NCBI GenBank assembly: GCA_036735985.1
Contig: DAINNH010000001.1
Span: forward strand, 103,735-167,734
DNA length: 64,000 bases
Source: Candidatus Alectryobacillus sp.
GTDB taxonomy: Bacteria; Bacillota_I; Bacilli_A; RFN20; CAG-826
Direction: 5' to 3'
The stretch's first letter is position 1. Every line of letters starts with the position of its first letter. A model generated the notes under the pieces. It ran no database searches and was not told the origin of the DNA. It saw nothing but the letters and a program-made list of their open reading frames with translations. Shown in pieces: positions 33,458-56,746 of the stretch. The position numbers were made by a program, and so were the translations under genes.

Positions 33458-33633
33458 ATTCTTAATCGATAACATATTAATTATTACCAATTATAAATAC
33501 TTGGGGGCATTTGTTAAAATACGATTGCAAAACAACAATATTTGCGAAAAATTTTAATTAATATTACGGACTGAAATATATCACAATATTAATATTATTT
33601 TTAGTATAATATTAATACGCTTAAGGTATAAGA

Positions 33634-47914: not shown

Positions 47915-47990
47915 GGACCCTTAGCTCAGCTGGTAGAGCAACTGACTCTTAATCAGTGGGTCTAGAGTTCGAATCTCTAAGGGTCCACCA
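47915..47990 (+). tRNA. tRNA-Lys (anticodon CUU), CCA encoded
   Basis: Hand-folded cloverleaf. Acceptor GGACCCT/AGGGTCC, D arm GCTC-AGCTGGTA-GAGC, anticodon arm ACTGA-CTCTTAA-TCAGT, T arm TAGAG-TTCGAAT-CTCTA, and a 3' ACCA. Confidence 0.9.
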
Positions 47991-48046: not shown

Positions 48047-48496
48047 TTAACAGAATTCGCTTGCTAAAAGAATTTCAAGAATGTCATTTAATAAGCATTC
48101 GTCGTCTTTAGTAAATGCATTAAGTTCGTCGGAATCTATATCTAAAACTCCAATAATAAAAATATCATTGCGCATCGGTAAAACTATTTCACTTTTTACT
48201 GTGTTAGAACAGGAAATATATCCAGCAAATTTTGTAACATCATCGACAATTAATGTTTTTCTTTGACTCATGCATTGCCCACAAACGCCTTTTCCGTTAG
48301 GAATTGTATAGCAAGCCACATCACCTTGAAAAGGTCCTAAATAGAGGCAATCAGAGCCTTTTTCGTATAAATAAAAACCAACCCAGGAAGCTTTGGGCAT
48401 GATTGATTTAATATAAGCAGTAGTGTTGGCTAATTTTGATAAATAATTATCTTGTCCACTAATTAAGTCTTTATAAGCCAATATTTTATCGTTCAT
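48047..48496 (-). CDS. msrC: GAF-domain free methionine-(R)-sulfoxide reductase (YebR/MsrC-like)
   Basis: WVGFYLYE...LYLGPFQGDVACYTIPNGKGVCGQC...SEIVLPM...IGVLDIDS aligns along its whole length with E. coli YebR as I remember it. Confidence 0.8.
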   Translation of the reverse strand: MNDKILAYKDLISGQDNYLSKLANTTAYIKSIMPKASWVGFYLYEKGSDCLYLGPFQGDVACYTIPNGKGVCGQCMSQRKTLIVDDVTKFAGYISCSNTVKSEIVLPMRNDIFIIGVLDIDSDELNAFTKDDECLLNDILEILLASEFC

Positions 48497-49113
48497 TTTT
48501 TAATTACCTCAATATAATTTTTATGAATTGCAATTTTTCCACTTTCTTCCATTTCATGTAACAAACGTGATAAGTTTTCGCGTGTTGTTGAAAGAAAATA
48601 AGCTAGATTAGCAATACTTTTAATAGTTAAGACTCCCTCATTCATATTTAATAACTCGTTTACACGATCTTCGAGATATGGAATCTGTAAAATAATTAAT
48701 CTCCTTTTATCTTGTAGTGTCGTGTCAGCGATAATGCGTAGATATTCATCTCTAATATTTTTATCATTTAAGAGAATGTCAAGATTTTGCCTAGTTATTT
48801 TGATTAATTTTGTTTTTTTACGTGCTACCACTGTTGCTCTATATTTATTTAAACTAGAAAAAATCAAATTATTTCCAAAAATTTCGTATTTGTCAAAGAT
48901 ATTGTAGACTAAATCAGAATTATTTATGACTGAAGTCATATAAACTTCGCCATCTAAAATAATGGAAACCTCATTACAAGGTTGTCCTTCATAGAATAAT
49001 ATTTCATTTTTCTTATATTCTTTAATCCAGGATTCTTTTATTCCAGATTTATTAATATAATCAAGTAATTTTTTAACTTTCATACAACAAACCGTGATAT
49101 TTATCACGCTCAT
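48493..49113 (-). CDS. Crp/Fnr-family transcriptional regulator
   Basis: An N-terminal cNMP-binding-like beta-roll (ILFYEGQPCNEVSIILDGEV) and a C-terminal HTH (IANLAYFLSTTRENLSRLLHEME). The start is ambiguous: 49113 or the ATG at 49083 (MKVKKLL). Confidence 0.8.
   Translation of the reverse strand: MSVINITVCCMKVKKLLDYINKSGIKESWIKEYKKNEILFYEGQPCNEVSIILDGEVYMTSVINNSDLVYNIFDKYEIFGNNLIFSSLNKYRATVVARKKTKLIKITRQNLDILLNDKNIRDEYLRIIADTTLQDKRRLIILQIPYLEDRVNELLNMNEGVLTIKSIANLAYFLSTTRENLSRLLHEMEESGKIAIHKNYIEVIKK
49092..49109. promoter_or_regulatory. CRP/FNR-type palindromic box CCGTGATATTTATCACGC
   Basis: The core GTGA-N6-TCAC lies in the divergent region between the Crp/Fnr gene and the lipoprotein gene. 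It is centred 41.5 nt upstream of the start predicted from TATACT (49130-49135). Confidence 0.5.
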
Positions 49114-49164
49114 TTATTATAACTTATATTATACTTTAATTGCAATTATAAAGGAGATTTAGGT

Positions 49165-50211
49165 ATGAAAAAGAATATAAGTCTATTATTGTTATTGTCA
49201 AGTTTTGTTTTAGTCTCTTGTGGAGGAACATCTTCAAGCAGTGAAACAACTAAACAGTCCACGGAAGAAAGCGTCACTACTACTGGTGACACTACACAAG
49301 TGGCTACCACAACACAATCAACAACAAGCGAACAACAAGTGGAGCCATCTATTGTATATCCTGCTGGAACACCAGCTTTAGGATTAGCGAATTATTTAGT
49401 TGATCATGTTGATTCATCAACAGTTGTCGATGCGAGCGGCCTTATTGCCGAATTTTCGAAAGGTGCAGAAGGCAGTGATATCATCGTAGCACCTGTTAAT
49501 GTTGGGGTAAAAATGTACAATACAAATGCTGCCTATAAGTTATTTAAAACATTTGTTTGGGGCAATTTATTTATTATTTCAAAAAATGCAAGTGTTAAAT
49601 CATTTGCTGATTTAGATGGCAAAAAAGTTGGATATTTCGGTACACAAACTGCTACGCCATACATTGTGACGACTGCTTTAATGAAAAATAAAAATATTAC
49701 TATTTCACTTGAAGCTGGTGCTTCGACGGTTTCGGAATTAACGCCATTATTTGTTAATGGAACTTATGATACTATTATTACTGCAGAACCCGTTTTATCT
49801 GGTTTAAAAATTAAAGGTGTTGTAAATGACAGTGTTACAATCATTGATTTACAGAATGAGTATAAGTTAATGAATGGAACAAATTCATATCCACAAGCCG
49901 GTATTTTTGTGAATTCTGAGTCTTACGGAAGTTACTTTAAAACTGCAGTTTTAGACAAGATGGTTGACGCAATTAATAAAGCCAATACAGATTCAACTAC
50001 AACCGCACAAAATGCTTTAAAATTATCTGTTTTTTCAACAAGTAATGAAGCTATTTTAACAAAAGCAATTCCTGGTTCAAATTTTAATATTATCACTGAT
50101 TATACAGTCGAAAAAACACAAATAGATTCCTATCTTGATATTTTAAGTAGCCAAAATTTAGGGAATACCTATGGGAATACAAAACCGTCAGAAGAATTCT
50201 ATATTCATTAA
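49165..50211 (+). CDS. substrate-binding lipoprotein (type-2 PBP, SsuA/TauA/ThiY-like)
   Basis: Lipobox LVSC plus a Ser/Thr linker. FADLDGKKVGYFGTQTATPYIVTTAL is typical of the NMT1/SsuA-like fold. Family assignment is tentative. Confidence 0.6.
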   Translation: MKKNISLLLLLSSFVLVSCGGTSSSSETTKQSTEESVTTTGDTTQVATTTQSTTSEQQVEPSIVYPAGTPALGLANYLVDHVDSSTVVDASGLIAEFSKGAEGSDIIVAPVNVGVKMYNTNAAYKLFKTFVWGNLFIISKNASVKSFADLDGKKVGYFGTQTATPYIVTTALMKNKNITISLEAGASTVSELTPLFVNGTYDTIITAEPVLSGLKIKGVVNDSVTIIDLQNEYKLMNGTNSYPQAGIFVNSESYGSYFKTAVLDKMVDAINKANTDSTTTAQNALKLSVFSTSNEAILTKAIPGSNFNIITDYTVEKTQIDSYLDILSSQNLGNTYGNTKPSEEFYIH

Positions 50212-50950
50212 TTATTTTCTCTTTAGTTTAGGAATTGCAGTGTTTTTTGTTATATATTTTGCAATATCCTATTCTAAAAAAGATAGTTCAATGGCCTTTG
50301 TCTTTCCTGGATGGGGAGAGATATTTTCAAGCATTGGTTCAATCTTAACGAATAAGACATCTTTAATATCTTTGGGATGGTCTTTTTTAAGAATTATCGT
50401 TATGATTATAACTTCATTCGTTTTATCAAACTTAATATCATTTATTTATGTTTGTTATAAACCATCTATTAATTTTTTAAAACCTTTTATATTTTTTATA
50501 AAAACAGCTCCTATTGCTGCCATTTCTATTTATTTATGGTTATCAGTTGGCTCAGAGGGTGCTCCATATATTGTGGGTGGAATGGTAATATTTCCATTAA
50601 TGCTAGAAGCTGACTTAACCTCTATTGATAATATTGATAAAAATATTTTAGACGAACTAAAAATTAGTGGTGCTAATAAATTTGAACAATTTATTAAAAT
50701 ATATTTACCTATTACTGCTCCCTACCAAGTGATGTCTATTTTGCAAGGTTTCGGATTAGGTTTTAAAGTTGGTATAATGTCCGAATATTTAGTTTATACA
50801 AAAAATAGCGTAGGATCTTTATTACATAATTATTTTGATAATTTTCAAGTAGCATATCTTTTAGGTATGGTTTTTATCATTGTTGTAATTGTTTTGATTA
50901 TAGATGGAATTATGCAATTATATAAAAAACATCTAGAAAAATCCCTATAA
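50171..50950 (+). CDS. ABC transporter permease (TauC/SsuC/ThiX-like)
   Basis: EAA loop LDELKISGANKFEQFIKIYLPITAPY. 6 TMs. It overlaps the binding-protein gene by 41 nt. Confidence 0.75.
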   Translation: MGIQNRQKNSIFINYFLFSLGIAVFFVIYFAISYSKKDSSMAFVFPGWGEIFSSIGSILTNKTSLISLGWSFLRIIVMIITSFVLSNLISFIYVCYKPSINFLKPFIFFIKTAPIAAISIYLWLSVGSEGAPYIVGGMVIFPLMLEADLTSIDNIDKNILDELKISGANKFEQFIKIYLPITAPYQVMSILQGFGLGFKVGIMSEYLVYTKNSVGSLLHNYFDNFQVAYLLGMVFIIVVIVLIIDGIMQLYKKHLEKSL

Positions 50951-50979
50951 ATCGTAATTTTATTAGTTATAATATAAGT

Positions 50980-51711
50980 ATGGATTTAGAATATAAGTCT
51001 TATACTTTTACGACTTTTATCACGCAACAAGATGAAAATGGTTATTTACGACCATTTGGTATTTTAGATTTGTTTCAACAAGCGGCGACACTTCATACTG
51101 ATGATGTAGGGTTTAGCGCCAACGAACTATTTAAAAGTAATTTAATATGGGTAGTTTCAAAGAATAGACTTGAAATAATTGAGAATTGCAGGGATATTAG
51201 AAATTGTGTTGTTGAAACATGGCCTAATAATATTTCTAAACTTTCGCTCAATCGTAATTATGTTTTAAAAAGTATAGATGGAAAGATTATTGCAAAAGGC
51301 GTTTCGCAATGGTGCGTTCTTAATCTTAAAAACATGTTTTTAGCACCACTTCCTCCAAATCTTTTCAATAAAGTTCTTTGTAATGAAAATGCTTTTAATG
51401 ATGGTTTTTTGCGGATAGCAACTTATAAAAAAGAAGAACTTACTTTTTGCAAAAATATTGAGGTTTTGCACAGTTTTTATGATAAGGATCATCATGTTAA
51501 CAACGCTCATTATTTAGATTGGATTTATGACTCTATTGATATTAGTGAAATTCCTAATTGTTCAATCCAAATAGATTACGTCAACCAAACCTTCTTAAAT
51601 GATATAATAGGGATATACAAGAAGAGAATTAGTGAATATACATATTATTTTGCTGGTTATAGCAAGGAAAAACTTTGCTTTAAATGCATTTTGGAGGTTA
51701 AACATGGTTAA
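50980..51711 (+). CDS. acyl-ACP thioesterase
   Basis: A double hot-dog layout: N-terminal YLRPFGILDLFQQAATLHTDDVGF...IWVVSKNRLEI...ETWP and a second half with HVNNAHYLDWIYD. Confidence 0.7.
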   Translation: MDLEYKSYTFTTFITQQDENGYLRPFGILDLFQQAATLHTDDVGFSANELFKSNLIWVVSKNRLEIIENCRDIRNCVVETWPNNISKLSLNRNYVLKSIDGKIIAKGVSQWCVLNLKNMFLAPLPPNLFNKVLCNENAFNDGFLRIATYKKEELTFCKNIEVLHSFYDKDHHVNNAHYLDWIYDSIDISEIPNCSIQIDYVNQTFLNDIIGIYKKRISEYTYYFAGYSKEKLCFKCILEVKHG

Positions 51712-52117
51712 ATTAAATTATGTTAAGAAAATTAAATCTGGTTTAAACAAAAGCAATAAGAAAATTGTTACTTTAAAAGAGCTGTCTCTAAGAAGCAATC
51801 TTAAAGAGGATATTATTCTTGATTGTGTTAGTGAATTTGAGCCAATGATTAGAATGTATGATAGTTATAATTATCGCAATATCGAGCAAAAAGTTAATGA
51901 ATACATTTCTGACCAGACAATCAAAACTCCAAAAATAGTCAAGAAACGCAACGTTAATTTAAACAAAGACAATTATAATGGTGTTTTTGATTTTATTTCA
52001 AAGAAAATGGTGTTGCCAGGTGGTATAATCGATAAAGCATACGTTTTTAATGATCAAGATTTAAAGACTCTAAAAAAATTGGTTAATGCTGAAATTAAGA
52101 AAAGGAAAGAAAATTAG
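51704..52117 (+). CDS. small basic protein of unknown function
   Basis: GGAGG lies 7 nt upstream of the ATG at 51704. It overlaps the thioesterase stop by 8 nt. 137 aa, Lys-rich. I recognise no family. Confidence 0.55.
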   Translation: MVKLNYVKKIKSGLNKSNKKIVTLKELSLRSNLKEDIILDCVSEFEPMIRMYDSYNYRNIEQKVNEYISDQTIKTPKIVKKRNVNLNKDNYNGVFDFISKKMVLPGGIIDKAYVFNDQDLKTLKKLVNAEIKKRKEN

Positions 52118-52120
52118 TTT

Positions 52121-53005
52121 ATGAAAAAAATAAAGAAAGCTGTTATTCCGGCCGCTGGACTTGGAACAAGATTTTTGCCAATTACAAAGACTCTTGCTAA
52201 AGAAATGCTCCCGATAATCGACTGTCCAAATCTTCAATATATTATTGAAGAATGTGTTAAGTGTGGCATTGAAGAAGTTATTTTAATTGTTTCAAAAGAA
52301 AAACCCGAAATAAAAGATTATTTTTCACGTTATATCAAATTAGAAAATCATCTTAAAAAGACTGGGAAGACTGAAGAGGCTGAATTAATTAAAAATGTTG
52401 GCGAAATGATAAAGATAAGTTTTGTCACTCAAGAAAAGCCGCTTGGATTAGGCAATGCTATTTTATGTGCTCGCGATGCGATAAATGGTGAAGATTTTGC
52501 TTTAATTCTCGGTGATGACTTGGTTTATAATCCTAAAAACCCTGCTATAGGTCAATTAATTGAAAAATATGAGGCTACGGGAAACTCCATTATTGGTGTT
52601 CAAGAAGTTGCACATGATCAAGTTTCAAAGTATGGTGTTATTGATACTGGCAAGAAAAAAGGTTCTAATTGTTTCGTGATTAATGGCTTTGTTGAAAAAC
52701 CAAAAATTGAAGAAGCTCCAAGTGATTATGCTATTTTAGGACGTTATGTTCTAAAAAATTCTATTTTTAATGAATTAGCCACAATTAAGAAAGATAAAAA
52801 AGGCGAGTACCAGTTAACTGATGCCCTCTCTCAACTTTTAAAGAAAGAAGAGATAGATGGCTTGGTTTTTAAAGGTGATAGATATGATATTGGTGATAAA
52901 TTAGGTTATATTAAAGCAATTATTGATTATTCACTAAAAAGATCTGAACTTCGTGAACCAGTTTTAAAATATCTTGAAGAAGTTATAAAGAGAGAAGAAA
53001 AATAA
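52121..53005 (+). CDS. galU: UTP--glucose-1-phosphate uridylyltransferase
   Basis: KAVIPAAGLGTRFLPITKTLAKEMLPIIDCP, GLGNAILCA and VEKP are GalU signatures. Confidence 0.92.
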   Translation: MKKIKKAVIPAAGLGTRFLPITKTLAKEMLPIIDCPNLQYIIEECVKCGIEEVILIVSKEKPEIKDYFSRYIKLENHLKKTGKTEEAELIKNVGEMIKISFVTQEKPLGLGNAILCARDAINGEDFALILGDDLVYNPKNPAIGQLIEKYEATGNSIIGVQEVAHDQVSKYGVIDTGKKKGSNCFVINGFVEKPKIEEAPSDYAILGRYVLKNSIFNELATIKKDKKGEYQLTDALSQLLKKEEIDGLVFKGDRYDIGDKLGYIKAIIDYSLKRSELREPVLKYLEEVIKREEK

Positions 53006-53012
53006 GAAAATT

Positions 53013-53037
53013 GCGTGATAAATATCACGCTTTTTTT
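53013..53037 (+). terminator. rho-independent terminator after galU, whose stem is also a CRP-type box
   Basis: GCGTGATA-aa-TATCACGC followed by T7. It is 17/18 identical to the reverse complement of the box at 49092-49109. Confidence 0.8.
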
Positions 53038-53105: not shown

Positions 53106-53134
53106 TTGAGTTTTGGCGATAAATTATCTATACT
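53106..53134 (+). promoter_or_regulatory. sigma-A type promoter of the PFOR gene
   Basis: TTGAGT (53106-53111), a 17-nt spacer, then TATACT (53129-53134). AAGGAGA RBS precedes the ATG at 53162. Confidence 0.6.
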
Positions 53135-53161: not shown

Positions 53162-56100
53162 ATGTCAGAAATTAAAAAGACTATGTTGTCGGTTGATGGC
53201 AATACAGCGGCTGCTCTTGAAAGTTATAATTTCACTGAAGTTGCTGGTATTTACCCTATTACCCCATCATCTCCAATGGCTGAACTTGTTGATCTTTATG
53301 CATCACAAGGCAAACTTAACTTCTTTGGAGGTAAAGTTAAAGTCGTTGAAATGCAATCAGAAGCAGGCGCTTCAGGTACCGTTCATGGTGCTCTTCAAGG
53401 TGGATCTTTAGCTACTACTTATACAGCAAGCCAAGGTTTACTTTTAATGATTCCAAATATTTATAAATGGTGTGGCGAACTTTTACCAGCAGTAATGCAT
53501 GTTTCTGCTCGTAGTTTAGCTACAAGAGCATTATCTATTTTTGGTGATCAAGCCGATATTTATGCTATTAGACAAACTGGTATTGCCATGATTTGTTCAC
53601 ATAGTGTCCAAGAAATCGCTGATTTAGCAAGTGTTGCTCACTTAATTGCAATTGATGCATCAACACCTGTTTGCCATTTCTTCGATGGTTTTAGAACTTC
53701 ACACGAAGTCCAAAACGTTGAATTTGTTGATAATGAAGAATGGAAGAAACTTCTTCCAATGGACAAAGTTGTAGAGTTTAGAGCTCGCGCTTTAAATCCA
53801 CATACCCATCCAGTAACACGTGGTGGTGCCGAAAATGATGATATTTATTTCCAAGGCCGTGAAGCCCAAAACCTTCACAACGATCATGTTGTTGAAGTTG
53901 CGGTTAAATATTTTAAAGAAGCCACTCGTTTAACAGGTCGTCCATATGCTCCATTTGTTTATTATGGTGCTCCAGATGCTGAAAAAATTATCATTGCCAT
54001 GGGCAGTGTTACTGAAACAGCGACCGAAGTCATTGATGATTTAACAAAGAAGGGTGAAAAAGTTGGTATGGTAAAGGTTCACCTTTATCGTCCATTCTCA
54101 TCTGAATATTTGTCTGAAGCTATTCCAGCAAGTGTTAAGAAAATTGCTGTTTTAGATCGTACAAAGGAACCTGGCGCTAACGGCGAACCTCTTTATCTTG
54201 ATGTCGTTGCTGCTTTAACACAAGTTGGTCGTAAAATTAAAGTTTATGGTGGTAGATATGGCTTATCAAGCAAAGATACATCGCCAAAAGATGTTAAGTC
54301 CGTGTTTGATTTCTTAGATCACAAACCACATCATAACTTTACAGTTGGCATTAATGATGATGTTACCCATCTTTCAATTAAGATTGATAACACATACGCA
54401 ATCCCAGCTTATTATAAATCTTGTTTATTCTATGGTTTAGGCAGTGATGGTACAGTTAGTGCTAATAAATCTTCTATTAAGATTATTGGTGATGCTACCC
54501 ATCAATATGCTCAAGCTTATTTCCAATATGATTCACGTAAAGCCGGTGGTGTTACAAGATCTCACTTAAGATTTGGTAGTAAACCAATTCATTCGACTTA
54601 TTATGTGCAAAATGCTGACTTTATTTCTTGCTCTCTAGATACATATATTGTCAAATTTGACATGCTTAACGCTATTAAAGATGGTGGAACATTCCTTCTT
54701 AATACAGATATGAGCAATGAAGAACTCATTAAAGTAATGCCAAATAGAATGAAATATTTATTAGCCACAAAGCATGTAAAATTCTATGTTATTGATGCTA
54801 ATAAGATTGCTCAAAGTATTGGTATGGGAAGACATACAAATACAACTCTTCAAGCTTCTTTCTTCTATCTCAATCAAGAGATTATGCCTTATGAGGATGC
54901 TCAACATTGGATGAAGAAGTTTGCTGAAAAGTCTTATGCCAAGAAAGGCCAAGCTATGGTCGATATGAACTATAAAGCAATCGATGCTGGCGCAGAAGGT
55001 CTTAGACAAGTTAGTGTTGATCCAGAATGGGCAAAACTTTCTCCTAAGAGAAAGATTGAAAAAACTGGTGATTCTTATTTCGATGATTATGTTAATAGAA
55101 TCGGTGCTTTGAATGGTGATGATATTCCAGTTAGTGAATTCCAGAAGTTTGAACTTCTTGATGGCACAATGGAAAATAATGTTACATTCCAAGAAAAGAG
55201 ATCTATCGCGGATATGGTTCCTGTTTGGCATAAAGAAAGATGTATTCAATGCAACACTTGTGCTTTTGTTTGCCCACATGCTACTATTCGTCCATTCTTA
55301 TTAAGTGAAGAAGAAGTTGCTAATGCTCCAAAGATCATGAAGAAAGATGTCGCTAAAGCTATTGGTGGACCAAACGTTGCTGGATTAAGCTTCCGTATTC
55401 AAGTCTCACCACGTAACTGTGTTGGCTGCTCACTTTGTGCAACTGAATGTTTAGCTAATAAAGCCGCTAAGAAGAAACTTGCTCCAGGTGAAAAGCTTAC
55501 TGGTGATATGATGGCTCTTGAAATGGTTGAAGCTAAATCACAATTCCCACAAGAAGAAGCTGCTGATTACTTATTTAAACATGTTGCCTATAAGAGCGAT
55601 AAGTTCCCAGTTACAACTGTTAAAGGTGCTGGATTCTTAATGCCTTATATGGAAATCTCCGGTGCTTGCGCTGGTTGTGGTGAAACTCCATACTATCGCT
55701 TAGTATCACAATTATTCGGTCGTGATATGTTAGTAGCTAATGCTACTGGTTGTTCTTCAATTTATAGTGGTTCTACTCCATTAACCCCATTTGTTAAAGA
55801 TAAAAATGGTGAAGGTGTTGCTTGGGCTAACTCCTTATTTGAAGATAATGCTGAATTTGGTTATGGTATGCGTGTTGCCACAAATCAAAAACTCTTAATG
55901 ATTTCTGAAATTCTTAATAAAGCGCTTAGTGCTGAAGATGTTACTCCAGAACTTAAAGAAGTTATTAGAAATTATCTTGCTAATATTAAGAATAAAGATG
56001 AATCTCGTAAGATTGTTCCAAATCTTGTTAAATTAGTTAAGGAATCTGCTAACGCTGATGTTAAAGGCGTCTTAGCTTACGAAAGAGATTTAGTTGATAA

Positions 56101-56746
56101 ATCTGTATGGATCATCGGTGGTGATGGTTGGTCTTATGATATTGGATACGGCGGCTTAGATCATGTTCTTGCAAGTGAAGATGATGTTAATGTTCTCGTT
56201 CTTGATACCGAAGTCTACTCTAACACTGGCGGTCAATCTTCAAAGTCTTCACAAACTGGTAGTATTGCTAAATTTACTGCAAGTGGTAAGACTCAAGCCA
56301 AGAAGAACCTTGCTTTAATGGCAATGGCTTATGGTACTGTTTATGTGGCTCAAATCTCCTTAGGTGCGAACCCAATGGCAGCTATTAAAGCTCTTAAAGA
56401 AGCCGAATCTTATGATGGACCATCCCTTATTCTCTGTTATGCACCATGTGCTAACCACGGTATTAAGGGCGGATTATCCAACTCAATTGAGGTCGAAAGA
56501 CGTGCCGTTGCAAGTGGATACTTCCCAATCTTCAGATATGATCCACGTAACGCGGCCTTAGGTAAACCAGGCTTAACACTTGATTGTGCTGAACCAGACT
56601 TTACATTATTTAGACCATTCGTTATGGGCGAAACAAGATTCTCACAACTTCCAGTTGTTAACCCAGCACATGCTGAAGAATTACTCACTAAGAGTGAAAA
56701 TTGTGCTAAGTTAAGATGGGAAAGAATTAAGAAATTTGGCTTATAA
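53162..56746 (+). CDS. nifJ: pyruvate:ferredoxin (flavodoxin) oxidoreductase, single-chain
   Basis: 1194 aa. DGNTAAA...YPITPSSPM N-terminus, 2x4Fe-4S CIQCNTCAFVCPH / CVGCSLCATEC, and a TPP domain GGDGWSYDIGYGGLDH. Confidence 0.95.
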   Translation: MSEIKKTMLSVDGNTAAALESYNFTEVAGIYPITPSSPMAELVDLYASQGKLNFFGGKVKVVEMQSEAGASGTVHGALQGGSLATTYTASQGLLLMIPNIYKWCGELLPAVMHVSARSLATRALSIFGDQADIYAIRQTGIAMICSHSVQEIADLASVAHLIAIDASTPVCHFFDGFRTSHEVQNVEFVDNEEWKKLLPMDKVVEFRARALNPHTHPVTRGGAENDDIYFQGREAQNLHNDHVVEVAVKYFKEATRLTGRPYAPFVYYGAPDAEKIIIAMGSVTETATEVIDDLTKKGEKVGMVKVHLYRPFSSEYLSEAIPASVKKIAVLDRTKEPGANGEPLYLDVVAALTQVGRKIKVYGGRYGLSSKDTSPKDVKSVFDFLDHKPHHNFTVGINDDVTHLSIKIDNTYAIPAYYKSCLFYGLGSDGTVSANKSSIKIIGDATHQYAQAYFQYDSRKAGGVTRSHLRFGSKPIHSTYYVQNADFISCSLDTYIVKFDMLNAIKDGGTFLLNTDMSNEELIKVMPNRMKYLLATKHVKFYVIDANKIAQSIGMGRHTNTTLQASFFYLNQEIMPYEDAQHWMKKFAEKSYAKKGQAMVDMNYKAIDAGAEGLRQVSVDPEWAKLSPKRKIEKTGDSYFDDYVNRIGALNGDDIPVSEFQKFELLDGTMENNVTFQEKRSIADMVPVWHKERCIQCNTCAFVCPHATIRPFLLSEEEVANAPKIMKKDVAKAIGGPNVAGLSFRIQVSPRNCVGCSLCATECLANKAAKKKLAPGEKLTGDMMALEMVEAKSQFPQEEAADYLFKHVAYKSDKFPVTTVKGAGFLMPYMEISGACAGCGETPYYRLVSQLFGRDMLVANATGCSSIYSGSTPLTPFVKDKNGEGVAWANSLFEDNAEFGYGMRVATNQKLLMISEILNKALSAEDVTPELKEVIRNYLANIKNKDESRKIVPNLVKLVKESANADVKGVLAYERDLVDKSVWIIGGDGWSYDIGYGGLDHVLASEDDVNVLVLDTEVYSNTGGQSSKSSQTGSIAKFTASGKTQAKKNLALMAMAYGTVYVAQISLGANPMAAIKALKEAESYDGPSLILCYAPCANHGIKGGLSNSIEVERRAVASGYFPIFRYDPRNAALGKPGLTLDCAEPDFTLFRPFVMGETRFSQLPVVNPAHAEELLTKSENCAKLRWERIKKFGL

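What the first reader, a model, noticed from the sequence alone, without database searches (positions are those of the whole stretch)
49092..49109. CRP/FNR-type box at class-II distance from a predicted promoter, divergent from a Crp/Fnr regulator gene
CCGTGATATTTATCACGC contains the classical GTGA-N6-TCAC core. It lies between the two possible start codons of the minus-strand Crp/Fnr gene (49113 and 49083). On the + strand its centre (49100.5) is 41.5 nt upstream of the transcription start expected from the TATACT at 49130-49135. No -35 hexamer is visible there. That is the textbook arrangement of a class-II activator-dependent promoter for the lipoprotein/permease genes at 49165-50950. The site could also autoregulate the regulator. 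A near-identical copy exists at 53013-53030.
Basis: partly seen in the sequence, partly recalled or inferred. Interest (0 to 1): 0.6.

Follow-up and report, generated by a model that had tools for sequence, protein, structure and literature searches.

The report
Conserved Crp/Fnr operator, activator-type promoter
The 18-base palindrome is very probably the binding site of the neighbouring Crp/Fnr-type regulator, placed so that the bound protein should switch on an adjacent nutrient-uptake operon and damp its own gene; this layout is kept in about 60 related uncultured gut bacteria, so it is a clean but ordinary example of a well-known control design.

Summary
CCGTGATATTTATCACGC sits at 49092-49109. 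A 17/18-identical copy sits at 53013-53030. About 0.02 copies of CGTGAT-N4-ATCACG are expected in the 597-kb assembly.

- 64 orthologous regulator loci in the same order carry a (T)GT[G/A]A-N6-T[C/T]AC(A) palindrome just upstream of the regulator.
- Wherever the flank was long enough to read, the divergent gene is a homologous lipoprotein binding protein.
- In 58 of 58 non-identical spacers a -10-like hexamer starts 22-24 nt after the box, and at exactly 23 nt in 43. This puts the box centre at -41.5. No -35 is present.
- On the regulator strand a -10 usually ends 4-6 nt before the box (8 nt here), which suggests autorepression.
- The recognition helix covaries with the box. R-E..SR goes with GTGA, and R-P/V..SR goes with GTAA. 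This is the CRP Glu181/base-pair-7 contact.

The true start codon is ATG 49083.

The second copy is species-specific. It has every feature of the intrinsic terminator of the galU-ending operon, and its position does not fit PFOR activation.

The effector and the transported substrate are unknown. This is a new member of a known kind, of moderate interest.

The parts
49092..49109 (.). Operator box 1: CCGTGATATTTATCACGC (core GTGA-N6-TCAC at 49094-49107, centre 49100.5)
   Evidence: Conserved at the same place in orthologous loci.
49130..49135 (+). Predicted -10 hexamer TATACT of the binding-protein operon promoter. It starts 23 nt after the box. The predicted start is about 49142. There is no -35.
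   Evidence: A hexamer at offset 22-24 occurs in 58/58 relatives and at offset 23 in 43/58.
49151..49156 (+). Shine-Dalgarno AAGGAG of the binding-protein gene
49165..50211 (+). Lipoprotein substrate-binding protein (348 aa), SsuA/NMT1-type fold, substrate unknown
   Evidence: Pfam NMT1 24.7 bits. Model pLDDT 80; best PDB matches are 3HN0 and then SsuA, MqnA, PqqT and ThiY. Homologous divergent gene in relatives.
50171..50950 (+). ABC permease (259 aa). No ATPase gene lies next to it, here or in 11 relatives.
50980..51711 (+). Acyl-ACP thioesterase (243 aa). It follows the permease on the same strand in this genus only.
51704..52117 (+). Unknown 137-aa protein. The start is taken from the gene call in a 99.4%-identical strain.
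52121..53005 (+). GalU, UTP-glucose-1-phosphate uridylyltransferase; last gene before box 2
   Evidence: NCBIfam TIGR01099 318 bits, just under the 326.8 cut-off
49116..49121 (-). Predicted -10 TATAAT of the regulator's own promoter. The -35 is TTGCAA at 49145-49140 with an 18-nt spacer. The predicted start is about 49109, so ATG 49113 lies upstream of it and the box covers about +2 to +17.
48493..49083 (-). Crp/Fnr-family regulator, 196 aa from ATG 49083. The recognition helix is TTRENLSR.
   Evidence: Pfam cNMP_binding 50.7 bits and HTH_Crp_2 23 bits. PDB 1O5L E 2e-11. Start fixed by homologues.
48047..48496 (-). GAF-domain protein (149 aa). It overlaps the regulator's stop by 4 nt. It is present in the sister species and absent from this position in more distant relatives.
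53013..53030 (+). Box 2: GCGTGATAAATATCACGC. A 7-bp stem with a 4-nt loop, preceded by an A-tract and followed by T7. It is the intrinsic terminator of the galU-ending operon and a perfect operator-like palindrome.
   Evidence: dG -14.3 kcal/mol, z -4.9. The arms are intact and there is one change in the centre in another strain. Relatives have a different hairpin or none at this place.
53162..56746 (+). Pyruvate:ferredoxin oxidoreductase (1194 aa) with its own predicted promoter, TTGAGT-17-TATACT at 53106-53134. The centre of box 2 is about 120 nt upstream of that start.

Best explanation
The palindrome at 49092-49109 is the operator of the Crp/Fnr-family regulator encoded next to it (48493-49083, minus strand). 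It lies in an 81-nt control region between the regulator gene and a divergent operon. That operon starts with a lipoprotein substrate-binding protein and an ABC permease. A regulator dimer bound at the box is centred at -41.5 of the binding-protein promoter, which has a -10 (TATACT) but no -35. This is the class-II activator arrangement, in which the activator takes the place of the -35 contact. The same bound dimer covers about +2 to +17 of the regulator's own promoter (TTGCAA-18-TATAAT on the minus strand) and should therefore hold down its own synthesis. The two promoters overlap back to back, so occupation of the box would switch RNA polymerase from one to the other. The signal sensed by the N-terminal cNMP-like domain is unknown, and so is the transported compound. 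The second copy at 53013-53030 is first of all the intrinsic terminator hairpin of the operon. It would probably also bind the regulator, with an unknown consequence. What is shown: the site itself, its conservation, the fixed spacing to a -10, the missing -35, the start codon, and the covariation between protein and site. What is inferred: binding, activation, autorepression, and all transcription starts.
For: (1) Rarity: CGTGAT-N4-ATCACG is expected 0.015-0.025 times per assembly, and two intergenic copies are found, both in this locus.
(2) Conservation: 14 of the 17 homologous loci found among 40 relatives carry an exact GTGA-N6-TCAC box just upstream of the regulator's ATG. Of 66 loci across the order, 64 carry the box type .GT[G/A]A-N6-T[C/T]AC..
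(3) Neighbour: the divergent gene is a homologous lipoprotein binding protein followed by a permease.
(4) Geometry: a -10-like hexamer (at least 5/6 match to TATAAT, or TAnnnT) starts at offset 23 after the box in 43 of 58 non-identical spacers, and at 22-24 in 58 of 58. Other offsets give about 3-5 of 58. There is no -35-like hexamer. A repressor would not need such exact spacing.
(5) Own promoter: on the regulator strand a -10-like hexamer ends 0-15 nt before the box in 51 of 58 spacers, with a peak at 4-6 nt. In the window this is TTGCAA-18-TATAAT.
(6) Specificity covariation: 49 regulators with R-E..SR have GTGA/TCAC boxes. Ten with R-P..SR and one with R-V..SR have GTAAC/GTTAC boxes. In E. 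coli CRP, Glu181 reads base pair 7, and Val/Leu/Lys181 mutants accept A or T there (PMC2677863).
(7) Start codon: homologues align from residue 13 onward. The sister species starts at the equivalent of M11, 11 nt after its box.
(8) No Rfam family matches either box.
Against: The -10 hexamers are predicted in AT-rich DNA, where such hexamers are common, although the sharp peak at one offset argues against chance. On the regulator tree the protein/site covariation amounts to only about 1-2 evolutionary changes, so it is a mechanistic fit and not a statistical proof. One exception exists: G061 has RE..SS with TGTAAT-N4-CTTACA. Two loci have hybrid boxes (G134, G146). The HTH_Crp_2 domain scores just under Pfam's cut-off (23 against 27 bits). 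The box also forms a modest RNA hairpin in the regulator's 5' leader, so an RNA-level role is not excluded. The assembly is 65% complete, so further sites may exist.
Confidence: 0.8

Rival explanations
1. The box is the regulator's operator, but the regulator is purely a repressor. Bound over the -35 region of the binding-protein promoter and over the start of its own promoter, it shuts both off until a ligand releases it.
For: The box overlaps both predicted promoters. Local regulators of uptake systems are often repressors (general knowledge).
Against: The box-to-(-10) distance is fixed at 23 +/-1 nt in 58/58 relatives, and no relative has a -35-like hexamer. A promoter without a -35 or an extended -10 is expected to be weak on its own. 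Steric repression does not require helical-phase precision.
Confidence: 0.12
2. Both palindromes act as RNA hairpins and not as protein-binding DNA. Box 2 would be a terminator. Box 1 would be a 5'-leader hairpin or attenuator of the regulator mRNA (hairpin followed by UUUGUUGU).
For: Box 2 has an A-tract, a 7-bp stem and U7, with dG -14.3 and z -4.9. The minus-strand RNA of box 1 folds with dG -11.7 and z -3.7. The terminator scan flags both. The concerted arm changes GTGAT to GTAAC keep pairing.
Against: In relatives the arms keep their sequence and not merely their pairing. The stems are short and AU-rich, and most are followed within 2-10 nt by the ATG with no U-run. An RNA role cannot explain the fixed distance to a -10 on the other strand or the covariation with the recognition-helix residue. 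No Rfam family matches.
Confidence: 0.04
3. Box 2 (53013-53030) is a working second operator through which the regulator controls the PFOR gene or read-through into it, and not merely a terminator that happens to match.
For: It is 17/18 identical to box 1 and shares the unusual outer C/G (CGTGA, where relatives have TGTGA). The arms are intact in a second strain whose one change is in the centre. It lies between the operon and PFOR.
Against: Its centre is about 120 nt from the predicted PFOR start, which is not a usual class-I or class-II position. There is no TAnnnT at offset 22-24 on either side. Same-genus relatives have a different terminator hairpin or none at this place, and no second box. 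All features of an intrinsic terminator are present.
Confidence: 0.2
4. The box is a chance palindrome, or is conserved only as coding sequence of a regulator that starts at 49113.
For: The long ORF from 49113 is open, and a gene caller chose it in another strain.
Against: About 0.02 copies are expected. No homologue has the 10-residue extension. The box is conserved upstream of the ATG in about 60 genomes. ATG 49113 lies between the predicted -10 and the start and has no Shine-Dalgarno.
Confidence: 0.01

Closest known systems
E. coli CRP and FNR class-II promoters (site centred at -41.5, e.g. galP1, pmelR, FNR-dependent promoters)
   Same: A 5-N6-5 palindrome of the TGTGA-N6-TCACA type. Its centre is at -41.5 relative to the start implied by the -10. 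No -35 is present. The recognition triad is R-E-x-x-x-R.
   Different: This is not an orthologue. The NCBIfam CRP model scores 25 bits against a 266 cut-off, and the Fnr model 15.5 against 228. The protein has one cysteine, so there is no FNR-type Fe-S cluster. The effector is unknown. The regulon appears to be a single local divergon and not a global one.
CRP Glu181 specificity mutants and the comparative-genomics rules for CRP/FNR recognition triads (Desai et al. 2009, PMC2677863; Ebright's Val/Leu/Lys181 mutants cited there)
   Same: The residue after the first Arg of the recognition helix goes with base pair 7 of the half-site. E goes with G (GTGA), and P or V goes with A (GTAA).
   Different: Here the switch occurred naturally within one orthologous group, and the next base changes too (T to C). 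Two genomes carry a hybrid box. Nothing has been tested at the bench.
Local Crp/Fnr-family regulators of Gram-positive bacteria (B. subtilis Fnr, Lactobacillus/Lactococcus Flp, ArcR); recalled from memory, not tested here
   Same: Small regulators of about 200 aa that bind TGTGA-N6-TCACA-like boxes next to their own genes, often at -41.5, and are often autoregulated.
   Different: No specific sequence relationship was found. The best solved relative is the uncharacterised Thermotoga TM1171 structure 1O5L. The target here is a binding-protein/permease pair of unknown substrate.
Rho-independent (intrinsic) terminators
   Same: Box 2 has an A-tract, a 7-bp stem with 4 G-C pairs, a 4-nt loop and U7 directly after the galU stop codon.
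   Different: Its stem-loop is letter for letter the operator of the operon's own regulator (17/18). Terminators are not expected to show this.

Membership tests
Crp/Fnr family of transcription factors (the regulator) | N-terminal cNMP-binding-type beta-roll domain | tested here: met
   PF00027 50.7 bits against a 27.5 cut-off, residues 31-116 of the long ORF
Crp/Fnr family of transcription factors (the regulator) | C-terminal Crp-type helix-turn-helix | tested here: inconclusive
   PF13545 scores 23 bits, E 8e-5, just under the 27-bit cut-off. However, the protein aligns end to end, HTH included, with Crp-family structure 1O5L at E 2e-11.
Crp/Fnr family of transcription factors (the regulator) | Recognition-helix triad R-E-x-x-x-R that reads a GTGA half-site | tested here: met
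   TTRENLSR in the window. RE..SR occurs in 49 orthologues with GTGA boxes. The contacts are as listed in PMC2677863 and PMC12531629.
Crp/Fnr family of transcription factors (the regulator) | Binds as a dimer to a two-fold symmetric site | not testable with these tools
   The site is a perfect 16-nt palindrome. Binding itself needs EMSA or footprinting.
CRP proper (cAMP receptor protein) | Orthology to CRP / cAMP-responsive effector domain | tested here: not met
   NCBIfam NF008732 scores 25.3 bits against a 266 cut-off
FNR proper (oxygen sensor) | Cysteine cluster for a [4Fe-4S] centre | tested here: not met
   There is a single Cys in the 196-aa protein. NCBIfam Fnr scores 15.5 bits against 228.
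Class-II activator-dependent promoter | Activator site centred near -41.5, overlapping the -35 region | tested here: met
   This is relative to the start implied by the -10. The offset is 23 in the window, and 22-24 in 58/58 relatives. No start has been mapped.
Class-II activator-dependent promoter | Weak or absent -35 hexamer | tested here: met
   CGCTCA occupies the -35 place. No extended -10 TG is present. Relatives have no -35-like hexamer next to the box.
Class-II activator-dependent promoter | Transcription depends on the activator | not testable with these tools
   This needs a reporter or in vitro transcription. RNA runs could not be reached.
Intrinsic terminator (box 2) | G+C-containing stem-loop followed directly by a U-run at the 3' end of a gene | tested here: met
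   7-bp stem (4 G-C pairs), loop of 4, U7, 8 nt after the galU stop codon. dG -14.3 kcal/mol, z -4.9.
NitT/TauT-type ABC importer (target operon) | SsuA/NMT1-fold binding protein plus BPD_transp_1 permease plus ATPase | tested here: inconclusive
   The binding protein and permease are present. No ATPase gene is adjacent here or in 11 relatives. The ATPase may be encoded elsewhere.

The most novel reading that the evidence does not exclude
The 18-nt palindrome at 53013-53030 may be a dual-use element. As RNA it terminates the operon. As DNA it binds the operon's own regulator. The regulator would then sit at both ends of its operon and tune read-through into, or insulation from, the pyruvate:ferredoxin oxidoreductase gene. 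This would be an operator recruited as a terminator, or the reverse.
Probability: 0.15. Interest if true: 0.6.

Novelty: new member of a known kind. Interest (0 to 1): 0.38.

Why it matters
It gives a first, testable piece of transcriptional wiring for an uncultured, small-genome lineage of gut Bacilli. The records of the relatives are titled 'MAG: Bacilli bacterium' and Candidatus Alectryobacillus. The wiring has four parts: one regulator, one operator, one activated uptake operon, and negative feedback.

The orthologous group also holds a natural specificity switch. Recognition-helix Glu changes to Pro or Val together with GTGA changing to GTAA, and hybrid boxes occur in two genomes. This mirrors the classical CRP Glu181 genetics and could serve as a ready-made pair of orthogonal regulator/operator sets.

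The target is a binding protein plus permease that never has an ATPase gene beside it in the relatives examined. It is an uncharacterised transporter whose inducer could be found through this regulator.

Tried and rejected

(2) Scan of metagenome contigs for GCGTGATAAATATCACG: 103 stretches matched, and the 80 loci returned for them came from unrelated environments. None resembled this genome apart from a 75-nt match at 83% identity. These are chance hits and gave no information on missing regulon members.

(3) The search for related loci in genome contigs. The 14-sequence alignment had no usable conserved stretch. The single protein found nothing. A 4-sequence alignment gave 6 loci, which were useful mainly for organism names.

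(4) Wider regulon. GTGAT-N4-ATCAC occurs in relatives at about the rate of the reversed control pattern. The extra hits are nearly all inside genes. Sites with one mismatch in the own genome gave no convincing candidate. The best was CTGAAATATATCAC at window 33571, but its TATAAT is at offset 21 and its left half is poor. C8:988 looked like a terminator with the motif but lies inside a 392-aa ORF.

(5) Substrate. A sequence profile and a fold search give only the SsuA/TauA/ThiY/MqnA/PqqT class, with the uncharacterised 3HN0 as best match. I considered a thiamine-precursor (HMP) importer linked to the TPP enzyme PFOR. I rejected it because no ThiE was found in five genomes, four of them at least 96% complete.

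(6) The GAF gene as part of the conserved module. It is absent from this position in most relatives and present only in the sister species.

(7) Statistics on the covariation. The tree shows only about 1-2 changes, so no valid test is possible.

Full report
**Observation**

The window reads CCGTGATATTTATCACGC at 49092-49109, with core GTGATATTTATCAC at 49094-49107. A second copy, GCGTGATAAATATCACGC, lies at 53013-53030. Read as a reverse complement it matches the first at 17 of 18 positions. The minus-strand ORF 48493-49113 has ATGs at 49113 and 49083, and the box lies between them. TATACT is at 49130-49135. A start 7 nt after it (49142) puts the box centre (49100.5) at -41.5. The bases where a -35 would lie (CGCTCA) do not resemble TTGACA, and there is no extended -10.

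The window belongs to a 597-kb, 12-contig assembly with 32% G+C that is 65.5% complete. From base composition and first-order Markov simulations, GTGAT-N4-ATCAC is expected about 0.6 times and CGTGAT-N4-ATCACG 0.015-0.025 times in the whole assembly. They are observed 4 and 3 times. All other GTGA-N6-TCAC hits lie inside ORFs. One of them (C5:43672) is a perfect 18-nt palindrome. It is explained by the codons of the KRDDDHA motif of a 776-aa ORF, which I read as a GH36-type motif from memory. The two boxes of this locus are thus the only intergenic copies found.

**The genes**

- 48493-49113 (minus strand) is a Crp/Fnr-family protein. cNMP_binding scores 50.7 bits. HTH_Crp_2 scores 23 bits, just under its cut-off. 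The closest solved structure is the uncharacterised Thermotoga Crp-family protein 1O5L.
- It is not CRP or FNR proper. The NCBIfam models score 25 against a cut-off of 266, and 15.5 against 228. The protein has one cysteine.
- A GAF-domain gene overlaps its stop codon.
- Divergently, 49165-53005 encodes five genes: an SsuA/NMT1-type lipoprotein binding protein, an ABC permease, an acyl-ACP thioesterase, a 137-aa unknown protein and GalU.
- Box 2 follows, and then a 1194-aa pyruvate:ferredoxin oxidoreductase.

**Comparative test of the box**

I searched 40 relatives with the regulator and found homologues in 17, at about 25-36% identity. Fourteen of these carry an exact GTGA-N6-TCAC, mostly TGTGAT-N4-ATCACA, 2-25 nt upstream of the regulator's ATG. 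Two more carry TGTAAC-N4-GTTACA at the same place.

A profile search of 251 genomes of the order separated about 60 orthologues (E below 1e-42) from paralogues (E above 1e-31). Of 66 loci analysed, 64 have a .GT[G/A]A-N6-T[C/T]AC. box directly upstream of the regulator. Wherever enough flank was available, the divergent gene is a homologous lipoprotein binding protein followed by a homologous permease. An ATPase gene never follows.

The records of the relatives are titled 'MAG: Bacilli bacterium' and Candidatus Alectryobacillus merdavium.

**Start codon**

- Homologue alignments begin at residue 13 or later of the long ORF.
- The multiple alignment shows no counterpart of MSVINITVCC.
- The closest other species (54% identity, from two short metagenome contigs) starts MNAKKLLDF, equivalent to our M11. 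Its start is 11 nt after its box, TGTGATATATGTCACG.

The start is therefore ATG 49083, and the box is non-coding.

**Promoter geometry**

I anchored 58 non-identical spacers on the box and read towards the binding-protein gene. A hexamer matching TATAAT at 5 of 6 positions or better starts at offset 23 in 43 spacers, at 24 in 10 and at 22 in 5. Counting TAnnnT hexamers as well, every spacer has one at 22-24. Other offsets score about 3-5 of 58.

Offset 23 is exactly the window's TATACT, and it puts the box centre at -41.5. No relative has a -35-like hexamer beside the box. A fixed helical position combined with a missing -35 is what activation from a class-II site requires. Steric repression does not require it. 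That is why I prefer activation.

On the regulator strand, a -10-like hexamer ends 0-15 nt before the box in 51 of 58 spacers, with a peak at 4-6 nt. In the window it is TTGCAA-18-TATAAT (49145-49116), ending 8 nt before GTGA. The implied start is near 49109. The box then covers about +2 to +17, and ATG 49113 lies upstream of the transcript. This is the usual position for negative autoregulation.

The two promoters overlap back to back, so occupation of the box should favour one at the expense of the other (inference). The regulator's ATG follows the box by a median of about 8-9 nt, mostly without a Shine-Dalgarno.

**Who binds**

The recognition helix of the window's protein reads TTRENLSR.

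| Residue after the first Arg | Box half-sites | Orthologues |
|---|---|---|
| Glu | GTGA / TCAC | 49 |
| Pro | GTAAC / GTTAC | 10 |
| Val | GTAAC / GTTAC | 1 |
| Glu | hybrid TGTGAT-N4-GTTACA (G134, G146) | 2 |
| Glu (RE..SS; exception, G061) | TGTAAT / CTTACA | 1 |

In E. coli CRP the base-contacting residues are Arg180, Glu181 and Arg185. Glu181 reads base pair 7, and Val, Leu or Lys181 mutants accept A or T there (PMC2677863; PMC12531629). The natural switch seen here is the same rule.

On a tree of the regulators it corresponds to only one or two changes. It is therefore a mechanistic fit and not a statistical test. Together with adjacency in about 60 genomes, it makes the neighbouring regulator by far the likeliest binder.

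**Size of the regulon**

In relatives, GTGAT-N4-ATCAC outside the divergon occurs at about the rate of a reversed control pattern, and nearly always inside genes. A one-mismatch scan of intergenic DNA in the own assembly gave no convincing further site. This looks like a local regulator with one target, subject to the 35% of the genome that is missing.

**Box 2**

It begins 8 nt after the galU stop codon. It is preceded by an A-tract and followed by T7. As RNA it folds into a 7-bp stem with a 4-nt loop (dG -14.3 kcal/mol, z -4.9). That is a complete intrinsic terminator.

- Same-genus relatives keep the gene order from binding protein to PFOR. At this place they have an unrelated terminator hairpin (G002) or none (G001, G005).
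- Neither side of box 2 has a -10 at offset 22-24.
- Its centre is about 120 nt from the start implied by the PFOR promoter TTGAGT-17-TATACT. This is not a usual activator position.
- In a second strain (99.4% identical over 8.8 kb) the arms are intact, and the only change is in the 4-nt centre. This fits either role.
- The 17/18 identity, including the outer C/G that distinguishes this species' box from the TGTGA of relatives, cannot be chance.

My reading is that box 2 is the operon's terminator, built from or converged on the operator sequence. It would probably be bound by the regulator, but a regulatory consequence is unproven. I put a real effect on PFOR or on read-through at about 0.2.

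**What the system does**

- The binding protein models well (pLDDT 80). It falls in the SsuA/TauA/ThiY/MqnA/PqqT structural class, with the uncharacterised Parabacteroides protein 3HN0 as best match. The substrate stays unknown.
- An HMP or thiamine link to PFOR was considered and dropped. No ThiE was found in five genomes of the group.
- The effector of the regulator is also unknown.

**Rivals**

- A pure-repressor reading keeps the binding but not the activation. I give it 0.12.
- An RNA-hairpin reading of box 1 explains neither the fixed distance to a -10 on the other strand nor the protein covariation. I give it 0.04.
- Chance, or coding constraint from a start at 49113, is contradicted. 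I give it 0.01.

**Limits**

All starts are inferred from -10 hexamers. The genomes are metagenome-assembled and related to one another, so counts across them are not independent.

**Verdict**

This is a textbook Crp/Fnr class-II divergon with autoregulation, newly documented in an uncultured lineage. Two extras stand out: a natural specificity switch within the orthologous group, and an operator-identical terminator in this species. It is a new member of a known kind. Interest is 0.38.

Noticed in passing
window 49165-50950; relatives L039-L049: The binding-protein/permease pair has no ATPase gene beside it in this genome or in 11 relatives from several genera. In most genera the pair stands alone as a two-gene unit.
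   Followed up: partly
loci L102 (G134) and L104 (G146): These loci have hybrid operators, TGTGATATTTGTTACA. One half-site is of the GTGA type and the other of the GTAA type, and the regulator still carries Glu (PRESVSR). This may be an intermediate in the specificity switch.
   Followed up: partly
G000 contig C5:43672-43689 (outside the window): There is a perfect 18-nt palindrome, GCGTGATGATGATCACGC, inside a 776-aa ORF. It is encoded by the motif KRDDDHA (GH36-type motif by my recollection). GTGATGATGATCAC also occurs once in relative G011, where its context was not examined. The palindrome matches the operator arms exactly but is most simply a by-product of the coding sequence.
   Followed up: partly
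genomes G000, G001, G004, G005, G021: Neither thiamine-phosphate synthase (PF02581) nor thiamine pyrophosphokinase (PF04263) was found in five genomes, four of them at least 96% complete. G000 and its same-genus relatives G001, G002 and G005 nevertheless encode the TPP enzyme PFOR. How they obtain thiamine diphosphate is open.
   Followed up: partly
window 48047-48496 (-): A GAF-domain gene overlaps the regulator's stop codon by 4 nt. It is also present downstream of the regulator in the 54%-identity sister species, but not in more distant relatives. It may be an accessory sensor or a redox enzyme co-expressed with the regulator.
   Followed up: partly
window 33571-33584: A weak box-like sequence, CTGAAATATATCAC, lies upstream of the nuclease/ABC-importer operon. 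TATAAT is at offset 21, not 23. This is probably chance.
   Followed up: yes
window 47915-47987 (+): A tRNA gene (Rfam 71.9 bits) lies between the nuclease operon and the GAF/regulator genes.
   Followed up: no
window 49140-49145: TTGCAA is its own reverse complement. It serves as the predicted -35 of the regulator promoter and lies exactly over the predicted start of the divergent binding-protein transcript. The two promoters therefore occupy the same DNA.
   Followed up: no
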